Of a stretch of DNA of 64,000 bases, positions 10,591 to 35,867 are shown in pieces. Position 1 is the stretch's first letter, and each line of letters opens with the position of its first letter. Origin of the DNA: Eledone cirrhosa (Eukaryota); contig OZ024755.1 of the NCBI GenBank assembly GCA_964016885.1, positions 15,748,001 through 15,812,000 on the forward strand. Direction: 5' to 3'. The position numbers and the translations under genes were made by a program. The notes under the pieces were generated by a model. The model was not told the origin of the DNA. It ran no database searches and saw only the letters and a program-made list of their open reading frames with translations.

Positions 10591-12766
10591 TCATCATCAT
10601 CATCTTCGTTTAACGTCCATTTTCCACGCTAGCATGGGTTAAACGGGAGTTGTCCACTTGAGGCAAGGTTGGTCGGGTTACAATGTCTCGCTCATATAGG
10701 ACTATCTGGCAGGTTTTCTACGGCTGGATGCCCTTCCTAACACCAACCACATTTACAGTGTGGAACTGGGAACTTTTTACCGTGTTACCTACACGACCAC
10801 ATTACAGCGTGGACTGTGTGTTTTTTTCTCGTGACACCTACATGATCTCTATCTCGATCTCATTTATCTCATTTATTTGGACTGGATGTTGTGGTACCAA
10901 CTTTATAGAGAGAGGGTGGTGTTGGTGAGAGTGGGAGGATAGGGTAGGGGTAGTGGATTGGGGTGTATGTTTGGTTAAGAGGTGCCTACTGACTGTAGGT
11001 TTCGCTTTGTACATAGGCAAGGCGGGTCTTCTGTATTACTGCGTAGCGCCAAAGATCTCGGTCCAGTGACATTGTCTTAGAGAGGTGCAAGTGTGTAAGG
11101 TCGGAATTTATCAGATCGTCCCAGTTTTTCTGGGTCTACCTACTCCGTAACTACCATCAATTTTGATCGCCCTGCACTTTTTTATACAGCTGTCGTCCTT
11201 CATGCGCATCACGTGGTCATACCAACGTAGTCTTCTCTCGAGTAAACAGCATCTGATCCCTCTTATTCCTAAATTCTCACTTAGTTCATTTATGCTCTGC
11301 CGTTCACGTATATTACTATTACACATCCAACGGAGCATGCATGCTTCGTTCCTTTCCAGTCTGCGCAGGTCCTCTGCACGCAATGCCCATGTCTCACTGC
11401 CATGTAGCATTGCTGTTCGTATACAAGCATCATACAATCTGCCTTTCATTTTTAGAGAGAAACCTTTTGTGGCCAACAGCGGTATAAGCTCTCTGAACTT
11501 TTTCCATCCCGTTCTGACTCTGGCTACTGTACTTTCAGAACACCCTCCATTACTGCTGATTTCGTCACCCAGGTAACGGAAAGTAAGTGTCTACTATTTC
11601 TATAGAACCATCTGGGCAATAGAAGGGGCTAGTATCCTGTGGACACTTGCTACCTATTGCACCTGAGCATCGGCCACATATAAAGTCTACGTTCTTAGAT
11701 AGTTTACCTGTGATCCCACTACATCTTTTATGTACCCATACTTTGTATTTGGGACATAAAATTGAATTTATGCTTACTCCTTTCCTACACTGAGCAAGGC
11801 CATTTCCCTGAGGGTACCTGTGCCTTATTTTCCTTTCTACAAACTAGGACTTTAGTCTTAGACAAGTTAACTTTAAGGCCTTTTAATTCTAGGCCATGCT
11901 TCCATGTTTGGAATTTCTTTTCTAGTTCAGCCATTGATTCAGCTATGAGCGTTAGATCATCTGCGTATAGGAGTTCGCATGGGCAGCCGGTCTTGAACTC
12001 CTCTGTTATAGCCTGAAGGGCAATAATAAATAGGAGGGGGCTAAGGACAGAGCCTTGGTGAACACCAACTTTTACACTAAATTCTTCACAATATTCATTG
12101 TTAATTCTAACCTTACTGACTGTTTCATTATAAATAGCTTGTATAGCTCTCACAAGCCACTCAACTACACCTAGTTTTCTAAGAGCCCACCAGATAATGG
12201 AGCGGGGGACTCTGTCAAAGGATTTTTCCAGGTCTACAAAAGCTAAGTAGAGGGGTTTACTTTTAGCTAGGTACTTCTCTTGTAGTTGTCGTACAAGGAA
12301 AAGAGCGTCTGTTGTACTTTTACCTGACACAAACCCAAACTGCATTTCATCTAGATCAATTCGCTCTCTGACTAGTTGCGCTATAACTCTTTCTGTGACC
12401 TTTATGACCTGGTCAACTAACTTAATACCTCTATAGTTTCCTCTATCTAGAGCACCTCCTTTACCCTTGTAACAGTTAATGATGATGCTGCTACGCCAGT
12501 CTTTTGATATGACCCCATTCTGTATTACTTGGTTAACTATACGGGTGACCATAGTGTGTCCCACCATTCCAGATGCCTTCAACATCTCAGCAACTATCTC
12601 CGAAGGCACAGCTGCCTTGCCTGTCTTCATATCTTTGATTGCCTTACTTATTATACTACCTTTAACTTGTACCGCTGGTCCTTCTATTGGATCGATTTGG
12701 GGCAGATTATCTTTTTCCCACTTATTCTCCTCATTTAATAGTCTCTCGTAGTGACACTTCCAGGCT
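10591..12766 (-). mobile_element. 5'-truncated RTE-clade non-LTR retrotransposon (RT, PHD-like finger, C-terminus, 3' UTR, (ATG)n tail), frameshifted
   Basis: ORF 11785-13008 has QFGF, FVDLEKSFDRV, GVHQGSVLSP, LLYADDL. ORF 11111-11476 has MLHGSETW..RRLRWYDHVMRM..GRPRKT, typical of RTE. Tail ggacgttaaacgaagatgatgatg. Frameshifts at ~11787 and ~11585. Possible TSD tatcatcatca/tatcagcatca. Confidence 0.92.
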
Positions 12767-12839
12767 ATCAGCATCAGTGAGGGCAAGTACACCGTTATCA
12801 TTACGGACACACTTCTCCCCGTTATCATTACGGACACAC

Positions 12840-12912
<73 letters not shown>

Positions 12913-13041
12913 TAGAGTGCCTAGTAGAGCTAGTAGCATAAATAACTGGCAACACATGCTGATAAATGATACCACGAAAGTGGAAGCACTTTCACCTGAG
13001 ACTAGCATAGTAACGAATCATACAATATACACACTTTTAAA

Positions 13042-16520: not shown

Positions 16521-19500
16521 TGTTCTTTTATGGGGGGGTCCGATTTTTATTTGGGGGCCCCGTGTTTTTATTTGGGTGCCTGTTTTTTTATGGGGCGGTC
16601 CGTTTTTTATTTGAGTGCCCCGTTTTTTTATGGGGGGGGTCCGTTTTTTATTTGGGTGCCCCGTTTTTTGTTTGGGTGCCCCGTTTTTTTATGGGGGGGT
16701 CCGTTTTTTATTTGGGTGCCCCGTTTTTTTAATAGGGGGGGGCCGTTTTTTTATGGTGGGTCCGTTTTTTATTTGGGTGCCCCGTTTTTTATGGGGGGGT
16801 CCGTTTTTTATTTGGGTGCCCCGTTTTTTTATGGGGGGGTCCGTTTTTTGTTTGGGTGCCCCGTTTTTTTTATGGGGGGGTCCGTTTTTTATTTGGGTGC
16901 CCCGTTTTTTATTTGGGTGCCCCGTTTTTTTATGGGGGGGTCCGTTTTTAATTTGGGTGCCCCGTTTTTTTATGGGGGGGTTCCGTTTTTTATTTGGGTG
17001 CCCCGTTTTTTTATGGGGGGGGTCCGTTTATATTTGGGTGCCCCGTTTTTTATTTGGGTGCCCCGTTTTTTTATGGGGGGTCCGTTTTTTATTTGGGTGC
17101 CCCGTTTTTTATGGGGGGGTCCGTTTTTTATTTGTGTGCCCCGTTTTTTTATGGTGGGTCCAGTTTTTATTTGGGTGCCCCGGTTTTTATGGGGGGTCCG
17201 TTTTTTATTTGGGTGCCCCTTTTTTTTATGGGGGGGGCCGTTTTTTATTTGGGTGCCCCGTTTTTATATGGGGGGGTCCGTTTTTTATTTGGGTGCCCCG
17301 TATTTTATTTGGGTACCCCGTTTTTTTATGGGGAGTCCGTTTTTTATTTGGGTGCGCCGTTTTTTTATGGGGGGGGGCGTTTTTTATTTGGGTGCCCCGT
17401 TTTTTATTTGGGTGCCCCGTTTTTTTATGTGGTGATCCGTTTTTTATTTGGGTGCCCCGTTTTTTTATGGGTGGGCCGTTTTTTTATGGGGGGTCCGTTT
17501 TTTTAATGGGTCCGTTTTTTAATGGGGGGGGTCCGTTTTTTATTTGGGTGACCCGTTTTTTATTTGGCTGTCCCGTTTTTGTATGGGGGGGGTCCATTTT
17601 TTATTTGGGTGCCCCGTTTTTTTATGGGGGGTCCGTTTTTTAATTGGGTGCCCCGTTTTTTTATGGGGGGGTCCGTTTTTATTTGGGTGCCTCGTTTTTT
17701 ATTTGGGTGCCACGTTTTTTTATGGGGTGTCCGTTTTTTATTTGGGTGCCCCGTTTTTTTATGGGGGGTCCGTTTTTTAATGGGGGGGTCCGTTTTTTAT
17801 TTGGGTGACCCGTTTTTTATTTGGGTGCAACGTTTTTTATTTGGCTGCCCCGTTTTTTTATGGGGGGGGCGTTTTTTTATTTGGGTGTCCCGTTTTTTAT
17901 AGGGGGTGCCCCTTTTTTTATTTGGGTGCCACGTTTTTTTAGGGGGGGGGGGCGTTTTTTGTTTGGGTGCCCCGTTTTTTATTTGGGTGCCCCGTTTTTT
18001 TATGGGGGGGTCCGTTTTTTATTTGAGTGCCCCGTTTTTTTATAGGGGGGTCCGTCTTTTATTTGGGTGCCCCGCTTTTTATTTGGGTGCCCTATTTTTT
18101 ATTTGGGTGCCCCGTTTTTTTTATGGGGGGTCCGTTTTTTATTTGGGTGCCCCGTTTTTTTATAGGGGGTCCGTTTTTTATTTGGGTGCCACGTTTTTTT
18201 AGGGGGGGTCCGTTTTTTGTTTGGGTGCCCCGTTTTTTATTTGGGTGCCCTGTTTTTTTATGGGGGGTCCGTTTTTTATTTGGGTGCCCCGCTTTTTATT
18301 TGGGTGCCCTATTTTTTATTTGGGTGCCCCGTTTTTTTATGGGGGGGGCCGTTTTTTATTTGGGTGCCCCGTTTTTTTATGGGGGGGCGTTTTTTTATTT
18401 GGGTGCCCCGTTTTTTTATGGGGTGTCCATTTTTTATTTGGGTGCCCCGTTTTTTATGGGTGGTCCGTTTTTTATTTGGGTGCCCCGTTTTTTTATGGGG
18501 GGGGCGTTTTTTATTTGGGTGCCCCGTTTTTTATTTGGGTGCCCCGTTTTTTTATGTGGTGATCCGTTTTTTATTTGGGTGCCCCGTTTTTTTATGGGTG
18601 GGCCGTTTTTTTATGGGGGGTCCGTTTTTTTAATGGGTCCGTTTTTTAATGGGGGGGGTCCGTTTTTTATTTGGGTGACCCGTTTTTTATTTGGCTGTCC
18701 CGTTTTTGTATGGGGGGGGTCCATTTTTTATTTGGGTGCCCCGTTTTTTTATGGGGGGTCCGTTTTTTAATTGGGTGCCCCGTTTTTTTATGGGGGGGTC
18801 CGTTTTTATTTGGGTGCCTCGTTTTTTATTTGGGTGCCACGTTTTTTTATGGGGTGTCCGTTTTTTATTTGGGTGCCCCGTTTTTTTATGGGGGGTCCGT
18901 TTTTTAATGGGGGGGTCCGTTTTTTATTTGGGTGACCCGTTTTTTATTTGGGTGCAACGTTTTTTATTTGGCTGCCCCGTTTTTTTATGGGGGGGGCGTT
19001 TTTTTATTTGGGTGTCCCGTTTTTTATAGGGGGTGCCCCTTTTTTTATTTGGGTGCCACGTTTTTTTAGGGGGGGGGGCGTTTTTTGTTTGGGTGCCCCG
19101 TTTTTTATTTGGGTGCCCCGTTTTTTTATGGGGGGGTCCGTTTTTTATTTGAGTGCCCCGTTTTTTTATAGGGGGGTCCGTCTTTTATTTGGGTGCCCCG
19201 CTTTTTATTTGGGTGCCCTATTTTTTATTTGGGTGCCCCGTTTTTTTATGGGGGGTCCGTTTTTTATTTGGGTGCCCCGTTTTTTTATAGGGGGTCCGTT
19301 TTTTATTTGGGTGCCACGTTTTTTTAGGGGGGGTCCGTTTTTTGTTTGGGTGCCCCGTTTTTTATTTGGGTGCCCTGTTTTTTTATGGGGGGTCCGTTTT
19401 TTATTTGGGTGCCCCGTTTTTTTATAGGGGGTCCGTCTTTTATTTGGGTGCCCCGCTTTTTATTTGGGTGCCCTATTTTTTATTTGGGTGCCCCGTTTTT

Positions 19501-22500
19501 TTATGGGGGGGGCCGTTTTTTATTTGGGTGCCCCGTTTTTTTATGGGGGGGCGTTTTTTTATTTGGGTGCCCCGTTTTTTTATGGGGTGTCCATTTTTTA
19601 TTTGGGTGCCCCGTTTTTTATGGGTGGTCCGTTTTTTATTTGGGTGCCCCGTTTTTTATTTGGTTGCCCCGTTTTTTATGGGGGGTCCGTTTTTTATTTG
19701 GGTGCCCCGTTTTTTTATGGGAGGGTCCGTTTTTTATTTGGGTGCCCCGTTTTTTTATGGGGGGTCCGTTTTTTTATTTGGCTGCCCCGTTTTTTATTTC
19801 GGTGCCCCGTTTTTTTATGGGGGGTCCGATTTTTATTTGGGTGCCCCGTTTTTTATTTGGGTACCCCGTTTTTTTATGGGGGGGTCCGTTTTTGATTTGG
19901 GTGCCCCGTTTTTTTATAGGAGGGTCAGTTTTTTATTTGGGTGCCCCGTTTTTTATTTGGGTGCCCCGTTTTTTTATGGGGGGGGCCGTTTTTTATTTGG
20001 GTGCCCCGTTTTTTTATGGGGGGGTCCGTTTTTTATTTGGGTGCCCCGTTTTTTATGGGGGGGTCCGTTTTTTATTTGGGTGCCCCGTTTTTTTATGGGG
20101 GGGTCCGTTTTTTGTTTGGGTGCCCCGTTTTTTTTATGGGGGGGTCCGTTTTTTATTTGGGTGCCCCGTTTTTTATTTGGGTGCCCCGTTTTTTTATGGG
20201 GGGGTCCGTTTTTAATTTGGGTGCCCCGTTTTTTTATGGGGGGGTTCCGTTTTTTATTTGGGTGCCCCGTTTTTTTATGGGGGGGGTCCGTTTATATTTG
20301 GGTGCCCCGTTTTTTATTTGGGTGCCCCGTTTTTTTATGGGGGGTCCGTTTTTTATTTGGGTGCCCCGTTTTTTATGGGGGGGTCCGTTTTTTATTTGTG
20401 TGCCCCGTTTTTTTATGGTGGGTCCAGTTTTTATTTGGGTGCCCCGGTTTTTATGGGGGGTCCGTTTTTTATTTGGGTGCCCCTTTTTTTTATGGGGGGG
20501 GGCCGTTTTTTAATTGGGTGCCCCGTTTTTATATGGGGGGGTCCGTTTTTTATTTGGGTGCCCCGTATTTTATTTGGGTACCCCGTTTTTTTATGGGGAG
20601 TCCGTTTTTTATTTGGGTGCGCCGTTTTTTTATGGGGGGGGGCGTTTTTTATTTGGGTGCCCCGTTTTTTATTTGGGTGCCCCGTTTTTTTATGTGGTGA
20701 TCCGTTTTTTATTTGGGTGCCCCGTTTTTTTATGGGTGGGCCGTTTTTTTATGGGGGGTCCGTTTTTTTAATGGGTCCGTTTTTTAATGGGGGGGTCCGT
20801 TTTTTATTTGGGTGACCCGTTTTTTATTTGGCTGTCCCGTTTTTGTATGGGGGGGTCCATTTTTTATTTGGGTGCCCCGTTTTTTTATGGGGGGTCCGTT
20901 TTTTAATTGGGTGCCCCGTTTTTTTATGGGGGGGTCCGTTTTTATTTGGGTGCCTCGTTTTTTATTTGGGTGCCACGTTTTTTTATGGGGTGTCCGTTTT
21001 TTATTTGGGTGCCCCGTTTTTTTATGGGGGGTCCGTTTTTTAATGGGGGGGTCCGTTTTTTATTTGGGTGACCCGTTTTTTATTTGGGTGCAACGTTTTT
21101 TATTTGGCTGCCCCGTTTTTTTATGGGGGGGGCGTTTTTTTATTTGGGTGTCCCGTTTTTTATAGGGGGTGCCCCTTTTTTTATTTGGGTGCCACGTTTT
21201 TTTAGGGGGGGGGGCGTTTTTTGTTTGGGTGCCCCGTTTTTTATTTGGGTGCCCCGTTTTTTTATGGGGGGGTCCGTTTTTTATTTGAGTGCCCCGTTTT
21301 TTTATAGGGGGGTCCGTCTTTTATTTGGGTGCCCCGCTTTTTATTTGGGTGCCCTATTTTTTATTTGGGTGCCCCGTTTTTTTATGGGGGGTCCGTTTTT
21401 TATTTGGGTGCCCCGTTTTTTTATAGGGGGTCCGTTTTTTATTTGGGTGCCACGTTTTTTTAGGGGGGGTCCGTTTTTTGTTTGGGTGCCCCGTTTTTTA
21501 TTTGGGTGCCCTGTTTTTTTATGGGGGGTCCGTTTTTTATTTGGGTGCCCCGTTTTTTTATAGGGGGTCCGTCTTTTATTTGGGTGCCCCGCTTTTTATT
21601 TGGGTGCCCTATTTTTTATTTGGGTGCCCCGTTTTTTTATGGGGGGGGCCGTTTTTTATTTGGGTGCCCCGTTTTTTTATGGGGGGGCGTTTTTTTATTT
21701 GGGTGCCCCGTTTTTTTATGGGGTGTCCATTTTTTATTTGGGTGCCCCGTTTTTTATGGGTGGTCCGTTTTTTATTTGGGTGCCCCGTTTTTTATTTGGT
21801 TGCCCCGTTTTTTATGGGGGGTCCGTTTTTTATTTGGGTGCCCCGTTTTTTTATGGGAGGGTCCGTTTTTTATTTGGGTGCCCCGTTTTTTTATGGGGGG
21901 TCCGTTTTTTTATTTGGCTGCCCCGTTTTTTATTTCGGTGCCCCGTTTTTTTATGGGGGGTCCGATTTTTATTTGGGTGCCCCGTTTTTTATTTGGGTAC
22001 CCCGTTTTTTTATGGGGGGGTCCGTTTTTGATTTGGGTGCCCCGTTTTTTTATAGGAGGGTCAGTTTTTTATTTGGGTGCCCCGTTTTTTATTTGGGTGC
22101 CCCGTTTTTTTATGGGGGGGGCCGTTTTTTATTTGGGTGCCCCGTTTTTTTATGGGGGGGTCCGTTTTTTATTTGGGTGACCCGTTTTTTATTTGGGTGT
22201 CCCCTTTTCTTATGGGGGGTCCATTTTTTATTTGGGTGCCCCGTTTTTATGGGGTGTCCGTTTTTTATTTGGGTGTCCCGTTTTTTATTTGGGTGCCCCG
22301 TTTTTTAAGGGGGGTCCGTTTTCTATTTGGGTGCTCCGTTTTTTTATGGGGGGGTCCGTTTTTATTTGGGTGACCCGTTTTTTATTTGGCTGCCCCGTTT
22401 TTTTATCGGGGGGTCCGTTTTTTATTTGGGTGCCCCGTTTTTTTATAGGGGGGTCTGTTTTTTATTTGGGTGCCCCGTTTTTTTAAGGGGGGGTCCGTTT

Positions 22501-25500
22501 TTTATTTGGGTGCCCTGTTTTTTTATGGGGGGGGGGCCGTTTTTTATTTGGGTGCCCCGTTTTTTATTTGGGTGCCCCTTTTTTTTATGGAGGGTCCGTT
22601 TTTTATTTGGGTGCCCCGTTTATTATGGGTGGGTCCGTTTTTTATTTGGGTGCCCCGTTTTTTATTTGGGTGCCCCGTTTATTATGGGTGGGTCCGTTTT
22701 TTATTTGGGTGCCCCGTTTTTTATTTGGGTGCCCCGTTTTTTTATGGGGGGTCCGTTTTTTTATTTGGCTGCCCCGTTTTTTATTTCGGTGCCCCGTTTT
22801 TTTATGGGGGGTCCAATTTTTATTTGGGTGCCCCGTTTTTTATTTGGGTGCCCCGTTTTTTTATGGGGGGGGTCCGTTTTTTATTTGGGTGCCCCGTTTT
22901 TTTATGGGGGGGCCGTTTTTTATTTGGGTGCCCCGTTTTTTTATGGGGGGTCCGTTTTTTATTTGGGTGCCCCGTTTTTTATGGGGGGTCCGTTTTTTAA
23001 TTGGGTGCCCCGTTTTTTTATGGGAGGGTCCGTTTTTATTTGGGTGCCCCATTTTTTATTTGGGTGCCACTTTTTTTTATGGGGGCTCCGTTATTTATTT
23101 GTGTGCCCCTTTTTTTATGGGGGGTCCATTATTTATTTGGGTGCCCCGTTTTTTTATGGGGGTGGTCCGTTTTTTATTTGGGTGCCCCGTTTTTTATGGG
23201 GGGTCCGTTTTTTATTTTGCTGCCCCGTTTTTTATTTGGGTGCCCCGTTTTTTTATAGGGGGGTCCGTTTTTGATTTGGGTGCCCCGTTTTTTTATAGGA
23301 GGGTCAGTTTTTTATTTGGGTGCCCCGTTTTTTATTGGGGTGCCCCGTTTTTTATTTGGGTGCCCCGTTTTTTTATGGGGGGGTCCGTTTTTTATTTGGG
23401 TGCCCCGTTTTCTTATGGGGGGTCCATTTTTTATTTGGGTGCCCCGTTTTTATGGGGTGTCCGTTTTTTATTTGGGTGTCCCGTTTTTTATTTGGGTGCA
23501 CCGTTTTTTAAGGGGGGTCCGTTTTTTATTTGGGTGCTCCGTTTTTTTATGGGGGGGTCCGTTTTTATTTGGGTGACCCGTTTTTTATTTGGCTGCCCCG
23601 TTTTTTTATCGGGGGGTCCGTTTTTTATTTGGGTGCCCCGTTTTTTTATAGGGGGGTCTGTTTTTTATTTGGGTGCCCCGATTTTTTAAGGGGGGGTCCG
23701 TTTTTTATTTGGGTGCCCTGTTTTTTTATGGGGGGGCCGTTTTTTATTTGGGTGCCCCGTTTTTTATTTGGGTGCCCCTTTTTTTTATGGAGGGTCCGTT
23801 TTTTATTTGGGTGCCCCGTTTATTATGGGTGGGTCCGTTTTTTATTTGGGTGCCCCGTTTTTTATTTGGGTGCCCCGTTTTTTTATGGGGGATCCGTTTT
23901 TTATTTGGGTGACCCGTTTGTTATTTGGGTGTCCCGTTTTCTTATTGGGGGTCCATTTTTTATTTGGGTGCCCCGTTTTTATGGGGGGTCCGTTTTTTAT
24001 TTGGGTGTCCCGTTTTTTATTTGGGTGCCCCGTTTTTTAAGGGGGGTCCGTTTTTTATTTGGGTGCTCCGTTTTTTTTATGGGGGGGGGTCCGTTTTTAT
24101 TTGGGTGACCCGTTTTTTATTTGGCTGCCCCGTTTTTTTATCGGGGGGGTCCGTTTTTTATTTGGGTGCCCCGTTTTTTTATAGGGGGGTCTGTTTTTTA
24201 TTTGGGTGCCCCGTTTTTTTATGGGAGGGGTCCGTTTTTATTTGGGTGACCCGTTTTTTATTTGGCTGCCCCGTTTTTTTATCGGGGGGTCCGTTTTTTA
24301 TTTGGGTGCCCCGTTTTTTTATAGGGGGGTCTGTTTTTTATTTGGGTGCCCCGTTTTTTTATGGGAGGGTCCGTTTTTTATTAGGGTGCCCTGTTTTTTT
24401 ATGGGGGGGGCCGTTTTTTATTTGGGTGCCCCGTTTTTTATTTGGGTGCCCCGTTTTTTTATGGAGGGTCCGTTTTTTATTTGGGTGCCCCGTTTATTAT
24501 GGGTGGGTCCGTTTTTTTATTTGGGTGCCCCGTTTTTTATTTGGGTGCCCCGTTTTTTATTTGGGTGCCCCGTTTTTTATTTGGGTGCCCCGTTTTTTTA
24601 TGGGGGGGCCCATTTTTTATTGGGGTGCCCCGTTTTTTTATAGGGGGGGGTCCGTTTTTTATTTGGGTGTCCCGTTTTTTTATGGGGGTGGTCCGTTTTT
24701 TATTTGGGTGCCCCGTTTTTTATGGGGGGGTCCGTTTTGATTTGGGTGCCCCGTTTTTTATTTGGGTGCCACGTTTTTTTATGGGAGGTCCGTTTTTTAT
24801 TTGGGTGCGCCGTTTTTTTATGGGGGGTCCGTTTTGATTTGGGTGCCCCGTTTTTTATTTGGGTGCCACGTTTTTTATGGGGTGTCCGTTTTTTATTTGG
24901 GTGCCCCGTTTTTTATGGGGGGTCCATTTTTTATTTGGGTGCCCCGTTTTTTTATGGGGGGGTCCATTTTTTATTTGGGTGCCCCGTTTTTTATGGGGGG
25001 GTCCGTTTTTTATTTGGGTGCCCCGTTTTTTATTTGGGTGCCCCGTTTTTTATTTGGCTGCCCAGTTTTTTTATGGGGGGGCGTTTTTTATTTGGGTCTC
25101 CCGTTTTTTTATAGGGGGTCCGTTTTTTATTTGGGTGGCACGTTTTTTTAGGGGGGGCGTTTTTTGTTTGGGTTAGGGTTAGGGTTAGGGTTAAGGTTAG
25201 GGTTAGCGTTAGGGTTAGGGTTAGGGTTAGGGTTAGGGTTAAGGATAGGGTTAGGGTTAGGGTTGGCGTTAGGGTTGGGGTTAGGGTTAGGGTTAGGGTT
25301 AGGGTTAGCGTTAGGGTTAGGGTTAGGTTTAGGGTTAGGGTTAGGGTTAGCGTTAGGGTTAGGGTTAGTGTTAGGGTTAGGGTTAGGGTTAGCGTTAGGG
25401 TTAGCGTTAGGGTTAGGGTTAGGGTTAGGGTTAGGGTTAGGGTTAAGGTTAGGGTTAGGGTTAGGGTTAGGGTTAGGGTTAGGGTTAGCCTTAGGGTTAG

Positions 25501-26388
25501 AGTTAGGGTTAGGGTTAGGGTTAGGGTTAGGATTAGGGTTAGCGTTAGGGTTAGGGTTAGGGTTAGGGTTAGGGTTAGGGTTAGGGTTAGCGTTAGGGTT
25601 AGCGTTTTTTATTTGGGTGCCCCGTTTTTTTATGGGGGGGTCCGTTTTTTATTTGGGTGCCCCGTTTTTTTATGGGGGGGTCCGTTTTTTATTTAGGTAC
25701 CCCGTTTTTATTTGGGTGCCCCGGTTATTATGGGGGGGTCCGTTTTTTATTTGGGTACCCAGTTTTTTATTTGGGTGCCCCGTTTTTTTATGGGGGCGAT
25801 CCGTTTTTTATTTGGGTGCCCCGTTTTTTTATGGGGGGGTCCATTTTTTATTTGGGTGCCCCGTTTTTTAATGGGGCGGGTCCGTTTTTTATTTGGGTGC
25901 CCCGTTTTTTATTTGGGTGCACCGTTTTTTACTTGGGTGCCCCGTTTTTTTATGGGGGTGTCCGTTTTTTATTTGGGTGCCCCGTTTTTTATTTGGGTGC
26001 CCCGTTTTTTATTTGGGTACCCCGTTTTTTATTTGGGTGCCCCGTTTTTTTATGGGGGGGGTCCGTTTTTTATTTGGGTGCCCCGTTTTTTTATGCGGGT
26101 GGTCCGTTTTTTATTTGGGTACCCCGTTTTTTATTTGGGTGCCCCGTTTTTTTATGGGCGGGTCCGTTTTTTATTTGGGTACCCCGTTTTTTATTTGGGT
26201 GCCCCGTTTTTTTATGGGGAGGTCCGTTTTTTATTTGGGTGCCACGTTTTTTATTTGTGTGACCCGTTTTTTTATGGGGGGTCCATTTTTTATTTGGGTG
26301 CCCCGTTTTTTTATGGGGGGGTCCGTTTTTTATTTGGGTGCCCCGTTTTTTTATGGGGGAGGCCGTTTTTTATTTGGGTGCCCCGTTT
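16521..26388. repeat. ~9.9-kb satellite of ~20-bp monomers A (CCGTTTTTTATTTGGGTGCC) and B (CCGTTTTTTTATGGGGGGGT)
   Basis: Continuous tandem array of interspersed A and B monomers, strongly G/T-rich on the + strand, with kb-scale internal duplications. Confidence 0.97.
25170..25604 (+). repeat. Interstitial telomeric array (TTAGGG)n, ~72 units, with variants (mainly TTAGCG)
   Basis: Read directly. All units lie in one orientation and satellite continues on both sides. Confidence 0.97.
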
Positions 26389-34999: not shown

Positions 35000-35867
35000 T
35001 TTTAGAGTCAATTTAGCCATTTATGATGCCGTTGTAGCCATTTTAGTCATTTATGATGCGGTTTTAGACATTTTAGTCATTTATTATGACGTTTTAGCCA
35101 CTGTAGTCATTTATCATGACGTTTTAGTCATTTATTATGACGTTTTAGCCATTTTAGTAATTGATGATGCTGTTTTAGTCATTTTAGTGTCATTTTAGTC
35201 ATTTGTGATGCCATTTTAGCCCTTTTAGTGTCATTTTAGTCATTTATGATGCCGATTTAGCCATTTTAGAGTCAATTTAACCATTTATGATGCCGTTTTA
35301 GACATATTAGTCATTTATGATGACGTTTTAGCCATTTTAGTAATTTACGATGCCGCTTTAGCCATTCTAGTGTCATTTTAGTCATTCATGGTGCCGTTTT
35401 AGCCATTTTAGTCATTTATGATGACGTTTTAGCCATTTTAGTAATTTACGATGCCGCTTTAGCCATTTTAGTGTCATTTTAGTCATTCATGATGCCGTTT
35501 TTAGCCATTTTAGTCATTTATAATGACATTTTAGTCATTTATGATGACGTTTTAGCCATTTTAGTCATTTGTGATGACGTTTTAGCCATTTTAGTCATTT
35601 ATCATTTTAGTCATTTATCATGTCATTTTAGACATTTTAGTCATTTATGATTACGTCTTAGCAATTTTAGTCATTTATGATGCCGTTTTAGCCATTTTAG
35701 TATCATTTTAGTCATTTATGATACCATTTTAGCCATTTTAGTCATTTACATTGACGTTTTAGCCATTTATTATGACGTTTTAGCCATTTTAGTCATTTAT
35801 GATGCCGTTTCAGCCATTTTAGAGGCAATTTAGCAATTTATGATGCCATTTTAACCATTTTAGTCAT
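35000..35867. repeat. Satellite with ~30-bp unit (TTTTAGCCA TTTTAGTCA TTTATGATGCCG)
   Basis: Tandem array built from 9-12 bp subunits in variable order. Confidence 0.92.

What the first reader, a model, noticed from the sequence alone, without database searches (positions are those of the whole stretch)
25158..25618. TTAGGG array inserted in register within the satellite
Seen: the array begins right after a monomer's ..TTTGGG and ends TTAG-CG, where CG starts the next monomer, so CGTTTTTT(G/A)TTTGGG flanks both sides. G-strand polarity matches the satellite and there is no CCCTAA arm. Established: end-to-end fusions leave head-to-head arrays, while telomerase can extend G-rich 3' ends at breaks. 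Inference: telomerase-mediated repair of a break primed by the satellite's GGG, or telomere-satellite recombination. The satellite may seed or derive from telomeres.
Basis: partly seen in the sequence, partly recalled or inferred. Interest (0 to 1): 0.75.

Follow-up and report, generated by a model that had tools for sequence, protein, structure and literature searches.

The report
One-off telomere-repeat scar in satellite DNA
A 430-base run of the animal's own telomere repeat sits once, far from any chromosome end, inside an ordinary satellite DNA array, and is likely the scar of a DNA break patched by telomerase or by copying from another internal telomere-like array, a kind of repair scar already well described in mammals.

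Summary
In detail: 72 TTAGGG-type hexamers (25173-25604, one orientation, no indels) interrupt a 20-bp satellite, 15.8 and 29.3 Mb from the contig ends. Three sister copies in the same array show the empty site. The block replaces at least 4 bases, makes no target duplication, and has 4 nt (GGGT) in register at its 5' junction (chance about 4%). That is the anatomy of the short interstitial telomeric sequences (s-ITS) of Nergadze et al. The wider claim fails: this is the only such junction found in about 1.3 Mb of this satellite, and none of seven telomere junctions seen carries the satellite. Telomerase is not proven. Ten of the 21 substitutions are one change (TTAGCG type), almost absent from true telomeres (1 in 13,280 units), so units were copied after insertion or came from a degenerate donor. 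The genome holds megabases of degenerate TTAGGG satellite, but no matching donor was found. Spanning reads were not tested. Verdict: new member of a known kind, low interest. The scan noted similar scars earlier in two other genomes (unchecked AI notes).

The parts
16523..25173 (+). Left arm of a 20-bp satellite: about 434 monomers of two types (a T-run then ATTTGGGTGCCCCG; a T-run then AT, a G-run, TCCG), with 1.1-3.3 kb higher-order duplications
25170..25173 (+). 5' junction: satellite GGGT in register with the telomere repeat (4 nt exact; 6 of 7 counting the preceding TT)
   Evidence: chance about 4% on this strand
25173..25604 (+). TTAGGG block, 72 hexamers, 53 canonical, 10 with C at position 5, no indels. 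Bases foreign to the satellite: 25174-25602
25599..25606 (+). 3' junction: the last unit reads TTAGCG, whose CG and following TT also begin the next monomer. Blunt if the donor was canonical, 4-nt microhomology (CGTT) if the donor carried TTAGCG
25603..26388 (+). Right arm of the satellite, about 39 monomers, richer in the TACC variant than the left arm
17950..17994 (+). Empty sister copy 1 of the insertion site (monomer intact, GCCC present)
19076..19120 (+). Empty sister copy 2 of the insertion site
21212..21256 (+). Empty sister copy 3 of the insertion site

Best explanation
This is a single short interstitial telomeric sequence that replaces at least four bases of one satellite monomer, and it likely arose when telomerase extended a germ-line break ending in the satellite's GGGT, end joining likely sealed the new repeats to the far side, and later slippage or unequal exchange likely spread one variant unit through the block. 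Shown: position, unit make-up, uniqueness, the empty sister sites, the minimal 4-base loss, no target duplication and the 4-nt 5' register. Inferred: the break, telomerase, the joining step and the later copying. It is probably a neutral scar with no function.
For: Empty sister copies agree with both flanks (4 substitutions in 124 aligned bases left, 4 in 95 right, each of 3 copies), so the repeats entered a pre-existing satellite. TTAGGG is this genome's terminal repeat: 5 of 20 contig starts and 4 of 15 contig ends examined carry multi-kb tracts, one with 2,197 perfect units in a row. The 5' register of 4 nt has a chance of 4.1% on this strand, 0.4% on the other and 1.0% in the rest of the window. 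Deletion plus 5' in-register bases is the commonest pattern of mammalian s-ITS (PMC2246262 Tables 1 and 4; PMC7215372 Tables 5 and 6). The block's 11 substitutions other than G5C (2.5%) are of the same order as the flank divergence from the empty copies (3-4% pairwise). It is purer (74% canonical) than the large degenerate arrays sampled (mostly 41-62%). No donor was found: two variant-laden words have no exact match elsewhere in the genome, and alignment to 405-716 kb of fetched ITS DNA scores no better than shuffled unit orders (19.0 vs 21.1 +/- 2.4, 33 of 40 shuffles as high; 2 shared variant units vs 2-4 in 200 shuffles).
Against: Telomerase alone cannot give the sequence seen. Ten of 21 substitutions are G-to-C at position 5 (P about 1e-6 at equal rates, 0.004 if that class took a fifth of all changes), and nine terminal tracts hold 1 TTAGCG against 13,280 TTAGGG, so a second copying step must be assumed. 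No significant internal periodicity shows it (P = 0.15). The last unit is TTAGCG, so a donor with that variant would give 4-nt microhomology at both ends. One case with a 4% coincidence is weak evidence. In a tandem array the deletion is defined only modulo the monomer, and the right-flank match rests on common monomer types. The right arm differs from the left in one variant (5 of 23 vs 4 of 192, P = 0.0009). No telomerase-RNA fragment is attached, and the TERT gene and spanning reads were not tested.
Confidence: 0.5

Rival explanations
1. Templated repair or gene conversion from one of the genome's degenerate internal TTAGGG satellites: a broken satellite end invaded a TTAGCG-bearing array through GGGT, copied about 430 bases, and returned through CGTT. 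No telomerase step at this site.
For: Explains both junctions at once (4 nt each) and the repeated variant. The genome holds very large degenerate arrays (C1:217.8-218.1 Mb, C2:241.9-243.6 Mb, C8:23.7-23.9 Mb, C9:21.5-21.8 Mb and more). The C2 array carries TTAGCG, TTGGCG and TTGGGG and the TTAGCG-TTAGGG-TTAGCG motif (12 of 15 exact hits). One stretch (L055) has 9 TTAGCG and 50 canonical units in 72.
Against: No exact or better-than-chance donor. None of 4,774 in-frame 72-unit windows had both 53 or more canonical and 6 or more TTAGCG units. The C2 array averages about 10% TTGGGG against 1.4% here. Only 0.4-0.7 Mb of overlapping, non-random ITS loci were aligned, a fraction of the total, and donors turn over.
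Confidence: 0.28
2. Capture of a free canonical telomere fragment (broken end or circle) by end joining, without telomerase acting here, followed by the same ageing and copying of a variant.
For: Named as the alternative route in PMC2246262. Terminal tracts are long and pure.
Against: Gives no reason for the 5' register or the polarity unless microhomology was used, and still needs the variant to spread later.
Confidence: 0.07
3. Microsatellite-like growth from a TTAGGG seed that arose by point mutation in the satellite (the TTTGGG of one monomer type is one base away).
For: Eight single TTAGGG words occur in the window's satellite arms. Satellites that mutate towards telomere motifs are reported in Arabidopsis (bioRxiv 10.64898/2026.05.10.723265, section 6). 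Other ITS here each have an amplified private variant.
Against: The monomer's own TTTGGG is intact just before the block and its GCCC is lost, which slippage does not predict. No two- or three-unit intermediates were found beside the satellite. The preprint itself finds multi-unit islands unlikely by point mutation alone.
Confidence: 0.06
4. Rearrangement scar: a healed end of this array was joined to a piece of a different array of the same satellite (translocation or large deletion).
For: The right arm's TACC share (22%) resembles the large C1 array (19-34%) more than the left arm (2%). It shares 30% of its 24-mers with the left arm, against 53-99% for five equal pieces of the left arm.
Against: The monomer order runs on as in the empty copies for several monomers. 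The right arm is no closer to eight C1 samples than to the left arm (5 of 16 variant monomer types shared vs 2-5; blastn 87.8% vs 85.8-88.1%). Array edges diverge anyway, and the block could have isolated the arm.
Confidence: 0.06
5. Assembly or sequencing artefact (chimeric read or miscalled satellite).
For: The junction is unique, and no read evidence could be obtained (uninformative).
Against: The block has 21 substitutions and no indels, whereas errors in this assembly's terminal tracts are mostly indels. It needs two junctions that both fit the empty site, and no source with the same variants exists in the assembly searches.
Confidence: 0.03

Closest known systems
Short interstitial telomeric sequences (s-ITS) inserted at double-strand breaks in primates, rodents and horse (Nergadze et al. 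2007, PMC2246262; Santagostino et al. 2020, PMC7215372)
   Same: Internal, one orientation, inserted into pre-existing unrelated DNA with a small deletion and in-register bases at the 5' junction. Its 0.29 mismatches per unit equal the 'old' primate class (0.29-0.30, Table 3). Using repeat copies as the empty site is also their method.
   Different: 72 units is longer than the 2-25 copies given for human s-ITS (PMC6410037). The host is a tandem satellite, one variant dominates, there is no telomerase-RNA fragment, and the animal is probably not a vertebrate (inferred, not tested).
Heterochromatic ITS (het-ITS): large degenerate telomere-like satellites (review PMC6410037, passages)
   Same: Same motif and an overlapping set of variants. 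Such arrays are abundant in this genome.
   Different: This block is 0.43 kb, single copy, purer and not amplified.
Fusion ITS such as human 2q13 (PMC6410037)
   Same: Internal telomere repeat.
   Different: No head-to-head CCCTAA arm, and no subtelomeric repeat on either side.
CenTel centromere-telomere mosaic satellites of Arabidopsis (bioRxiv 10.64898/2026.05.10.723265; abstract and section 6 read)
   Same: Telomere-repeat island abutting a truncated satellite monomer; the satellite is one base from the telomere motif.
   Different: There the composite unit is amplified to megabases and proposed to arise in cis. Here it occurs once and looks inserted. Centromeric status of this satellite was not tested.

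Membership tests
s-ITS (break-repair type) | Repeat equals the organism's telomere motif | tested here: met
   Nine terminal tracts of TTAGGG
s-ITS (break-repair type) | Far from chromosome ends | tested here: met
   C15 is 45.08 Mb; site at 15.77 Mb. C15's own telomeres are not assembled in its first or last 10 kb
s-ITS (break-repair type) | Short, single-orientation, single-copy block | tested here: met
   432 bases, + strand only; both junction words unique in the genome; longer than typical human s-ITS
s-ITS (break-repair type) | Empty ancestral site showing insertion into pre-existing DNA | tested here: met
   Three paralogous empty copies. No orthologous or allelic empty site was available
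s-ITS (break-repair type) | Break-site change of a known class (none, deletion, addition, duplication) | tested here: met
   Deletion of at least 4 bases, no duplication; size defined only modulo the monomer
s-ITS (break-repair type) | [quoted passage not shown] | tested here: met
   4 nt; chance 4.1% for a random position and phase
s-ITS (break-repair type) | Arrived at full length in one step | tested here: inconclusive
   The repeated G5C variant needs later copying or a variant donor
s-ITS (break-repair type) | Made by telomerase | not testable with these tools
   Inference from register and polarity only; TERT gene not searched
TERC-ITS subclass | Extra telomerase-RNA-derived segment beside the repeats | tested here: not met
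   Nothing lies between satellite and repeats at either junction
Fusion ITS | Head-to-head TTAGGG and CCCTAA arms | tested here: not met
Fusion ITS | Subtelomeric DNA on both sides | tested here: not met
   0 of 7 telomere junctions in view have this satellite in their 0.3-10.6 kb flank; they share another AT-rich repeat
het-ITS or CenTel-type mosaic satellite | Large amplified block or repeated composite unit | tested here: not met
   One junction pair in about 1.3-1.4 Mb of the satellite
het-ITS or CenTel-type mosaic satellite | Centromeric or heterochromatic location | not testable with these tools
   No chromatin data

The most novel reading that the evidence does not exclude
Telomerase added only a few repeats, the blunt 3' join with the satellite's CG created the TTAGCG unit, and slippage then grew the block to 72 units carrying that junction-born unit backwards while cutting the right satellite arm off from homogenisation. 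The locus would then be an unamplified first step towards the mosaic telomere-satellite arrays seen elsewhere in this genome (C9:21.5-21.8 Mb), and a sequence-level case of telomerase-type break repair in a probable cephalopod. TTAGCG is also first or second among variants in 3 of 12 other ITS sets, one of them a short block without a CG junction (C6:86.05 Mb), so the junction-born step is not required.
Probability: 0.15. Interest if true: 0.45.

Novelty: new member of a known kind. Interest (0 to 1): 0.22.

Why it matters
As one locus it matters little: it adds a probably non-vertebrate example to a repair scar documented at hundreds of mammalian loci. Its small merit is that the satellite's own duplicates supply the empty site, so the junction can be read without a second species. 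It also shows that a T/G-rich satellite full of possible telomerase primers was used this way only once in about 1.3 Mb, which argues against the satellite being a telomere-seeding element. The larger lead is incidental: megabase degenerate TTAGGG satellites inside the giant chromosomes of this genome.

Tried and rejected
Target-site duplication: rejected, both copies of the flanking word exist in the empty sites. End-to-end fusion: rejected. Recurrent satellite-telomere junctions: none found. Of 11 hits, one is this site, 8 lie in the C9 compound array of another T-rich repeat (1 of the 8 loci read, the rest judged from matched letters and place) and 2 are two-unit tracts in unique DNA; the 2 hits are not in the satellite. 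One search missed this site itself because of a variant base. My first pattern (248 hits) caught degenerate ITS arrays, not satellite junctions. A (TTAGGG)10 search listed only one C1 array in its first 100 places, so no census of short ITS was obtained. Donor search negative. An apparent 42-base spacing of variants is not significant. Origin of the right arm inconclusive. No gene spanning the array was found: of 206 filtered frames of 45 aa or more, only a reverse transcriptase passed a Pfam cut-off; shorter exons and 60001-64000 were not covered. The run search on the left junction sampled only 2 words and is no evidence either way. Strict G4 motifs (loops up to 7) are absent from the satellite, so no G4 fragility is claimed. 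Five literature searches listed no paper on junction-level ITS analysis in cephalopods; only the top 20 of each listing were seen and the library is incomplete. Supplementary tables of PMC2246262 and PMC7215372 were not opened and may hold closer cases (ITS inside repeats).

Full report
Observation. The block is real in the sequence and far beyond chance: 67 matches of a 12-base telomere word against 0.46 expected, all on + and all at 25167-25604. It parses as 72 hexamers without indels, 53 canonical, with 21 substitutions. It splits a 20-bp satellite into a left arm of about 434 monomers and a right arm of about 39. The window is G000:C15:15748001-15812000 and C15 is 45.08 Mb, so the site is 15.8 and 29.3 Mb from the contig ends.

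Is TTAGGG the telomere here? Yes. Five of 20 contig starts and 4 of 15 contig ends examined carry multi-kb tracts in the right orientation. Nine tracts hold 13,280 TTAGGG and 1 TTAGCG; their proximal variants are mainly TTGGGG. In the 7 tracts whose inner junction was in view, the neighbour is an AT-rich subtelomeric repeat, not this satellite. One caution: a short patch of the satellite lies about 9 kb from the right end of C7, where no telomere is assembled. AT-microsatellite richness suggests an octopod, as does an earlier scan note; I did not test this. TTAGGG is reported for an octopus telomere (PMC6160780, one passage), and interstitial TTAGGG for all chromosomes of a slug (PMC12506671, passages).

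The empty site. The seven monomers before the block recur, with their rare variants, three times further left in the array. The junction word occurs only at those three places and at the insertion, and in none of ten other satellite loci fetched. In the three copies the monomer continues through GCCC into the next monomer; at the insertion those four bases are replaced by 429 bases of repeat. Flanks differ from each copy by 4 substitutions in 124 bases (left) and 4 in 95 (right). So the repeats entered an existing array with a small deletion and no target duplication. Caveats: the deletion is defined only modulo the monomer, and the right-hand match rests on common monomer types.

Junctions. 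At the 5' side the satellite's GGGT is in register with the repeat. For a random break and phase this happens in 4.1% of cases on this strand, 0.4% on the other, and 1.0% in the rest of the window. At the 3' side the join is blunt for a canonical donor, but has 4-nt microhomology if the donor unit was TTAGCG. Nergadze et al. (PMC2246262; passages and sections 8 and 14 read) report deletion as the commonest break-site change (50-52%) and 4 or more in-register bases in 17% of rodent loci against under 0.4% expected. The horse study agrees (PMC7215372, passages).

Recurrence. A 33-base satellite word has 4,885 exact matches in the genome, about 1.3-1.4 Mb of satellite by local densities, including an array of at least 200 kb on C1. 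Both exact junction words occur once. Four looser searches found no other junction of this satellite with two or more TTAGGG units in either polarity. Simulated sensitivity for pure inserts is 96% and 77%. In 100 kb of the C1 array fetched there was no TTAGGGTTAG word. The satellite is therefore neither a telomere seed nor visibly telomere-derived.

The variant problem. Ten of 21 substitutions are G-to-C at position 5, too many for independent mutation, and not from terminal telomeres. Either units were copied within the block, or they came from a donor. The genome has many degenerate TTAGGG arrays, from 0.2 kb to 1.7 Mb, each with its own dominant variants, so in-place copying of variants is normal here. 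TTAGCG ranks first or second in 3 of 12 other sets. A donor was sought by three genome-wide words and by alignment to fetched loci. One word had 14 exact hits elsewhere, two had none exact, and alignments did no better than shuffles. The fetched pool (up to 716 kb, overlapping and non-random) is only part of the ITS DNA, so a donor is not excluded. The remaining 11 substitutions (2.5%) match the flank divergence in order of magnitude, which fits an initially pure block of similar age.

Right arm. It carries more of the TACC variant than the left arm (5 of 23 vs 4 of 192, P = 0.0009), like the C1 array. By variant monomers, longest shared runs and blastn it is no closer to C1 than to the left arm. 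Isolation by the block, an old array edge or a rearrangement all remain possible. No spanning gene was found to settle it.

Mechanism and odds. That this is a one-off s-ITS in a pre-existing satellite I put at about 0.85. Within and around that: telomerase-primed repair with later copying 0.50; templated copy from a degenerate ITS 0.28; capture of a telomere fragment 0.07; growth from a point-mutation seed 0.06; rearrangement scar 0.06; artefact 0.03. Only the anatomy is shown; every enzymatic step is inferred.

Comparison and verdict. It works like, and by every feature testable here belongs to, the break-repair s-ITS class. It fails the tests for fusion ITS, TERC-ITS, het-ITS and CenTel mosaics (review PMC6410037, passages; Arabidopsis preprint, abstract and section 6). 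Earlier scan notes describe similar scars in a diatom satellite and a giant-virus-like contig (unchecked); no note on this feature appeared among 8 shown for this genome. New member of a known kind; interest 0.22.

Noticed in passing
G000:C1:217.83-218.13 Mb (L001-L030, L139); C2:241.91-243.64 Mb (L054-L064, L133-L137, L189-L190); C2:9.08, 127.9, 149.05, 251.19 Mb; C3:236.16 Mb: Degenerate TTAGGG satellites of up to about 1.7 Mb deep inside three of the four giant contigs (379-443 Mb), each with its own variants (TTAGCTG on C1, TTGGGG and TTGGCG on C2). Candidates for fusion relics or pericentromeric het-ITS; probably of more interest than the finding itself.
   Followed up: partly
L186:1293-1311 (G000:C8:23.842 Mb): Direct head-to-head switch from a TTAGGG arm of at least 137 kb to a CCCTAA arm of about 23 kb, the arrangement expected of an end-to-end fusion or an inversion. 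C2:241.926 Mb (L137) shows the opposite, tail-to-tail switch.
   Followed up: partly
G000:C9:21.50-21.76 Mb (L123, L143-L150, L171-L173): Compound satellite of at least 260 kb: degenerate TTAGGG blocks of 0.2-1.4 kb alternate with T-rich TTTTTCGA-type blocks in the same polarity, resembling CenTel-type mosaics.
   Followed up: partly
L130:4629-5129 (C2:155.59 Mb); L129:3544-3878 (C1:315.28 Mb): TTAGGG tracts enclosed by inverted arms (100 nt at 96%; 66 nt at 95%), like miniature transposons carrying telomere repeats. A possible further route for spreading ITS.
   Followed up: partly
L062, L064, L136 (C2:243.63-243.64 Mb): The C2 TTAGGG satellite abuts, after a TTAGCG unit, a different GC-richer satellite of roughly 190 bases (period judged by eye); the junction is itself duplicated.
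   Followed up: no
L125 (C1:208.79 Mb); L081 (last 10 kb of C7); L127 (C1:290.526 Mb): The same 20-bp satellite is interrupted or adjoined by another repeat (TTTAG-based 5/10-base units, in two inverted arms on C1), and the large C1 array switches strand once. Foreign blocks inside this satellite are not unusual.
   Followed up: no
L122 (C6:86.05 Mb): A 494-base short ITS in unique DNA with private variants TTAG, TTAGAG and TTAGCG; the closest counterpart of this block seen.
   Followed up: partly
window 11788-13017 (-): 410-aa frame with a reverse transcriptase domain (PF00078, E 6e-30), probably a LINE fragment.
   Followed up: no
window 48514-48846, 49541-49711, 58264-58434 (all -): Single C2H2 zinc-finger-like matches below the Pfam cut-off; exons or transposon ends.
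   Followed up: no
window 35012-35867: A second minisatellite with nested periods of about 30, 41, 71 and 101 bases.
   Followed up: no
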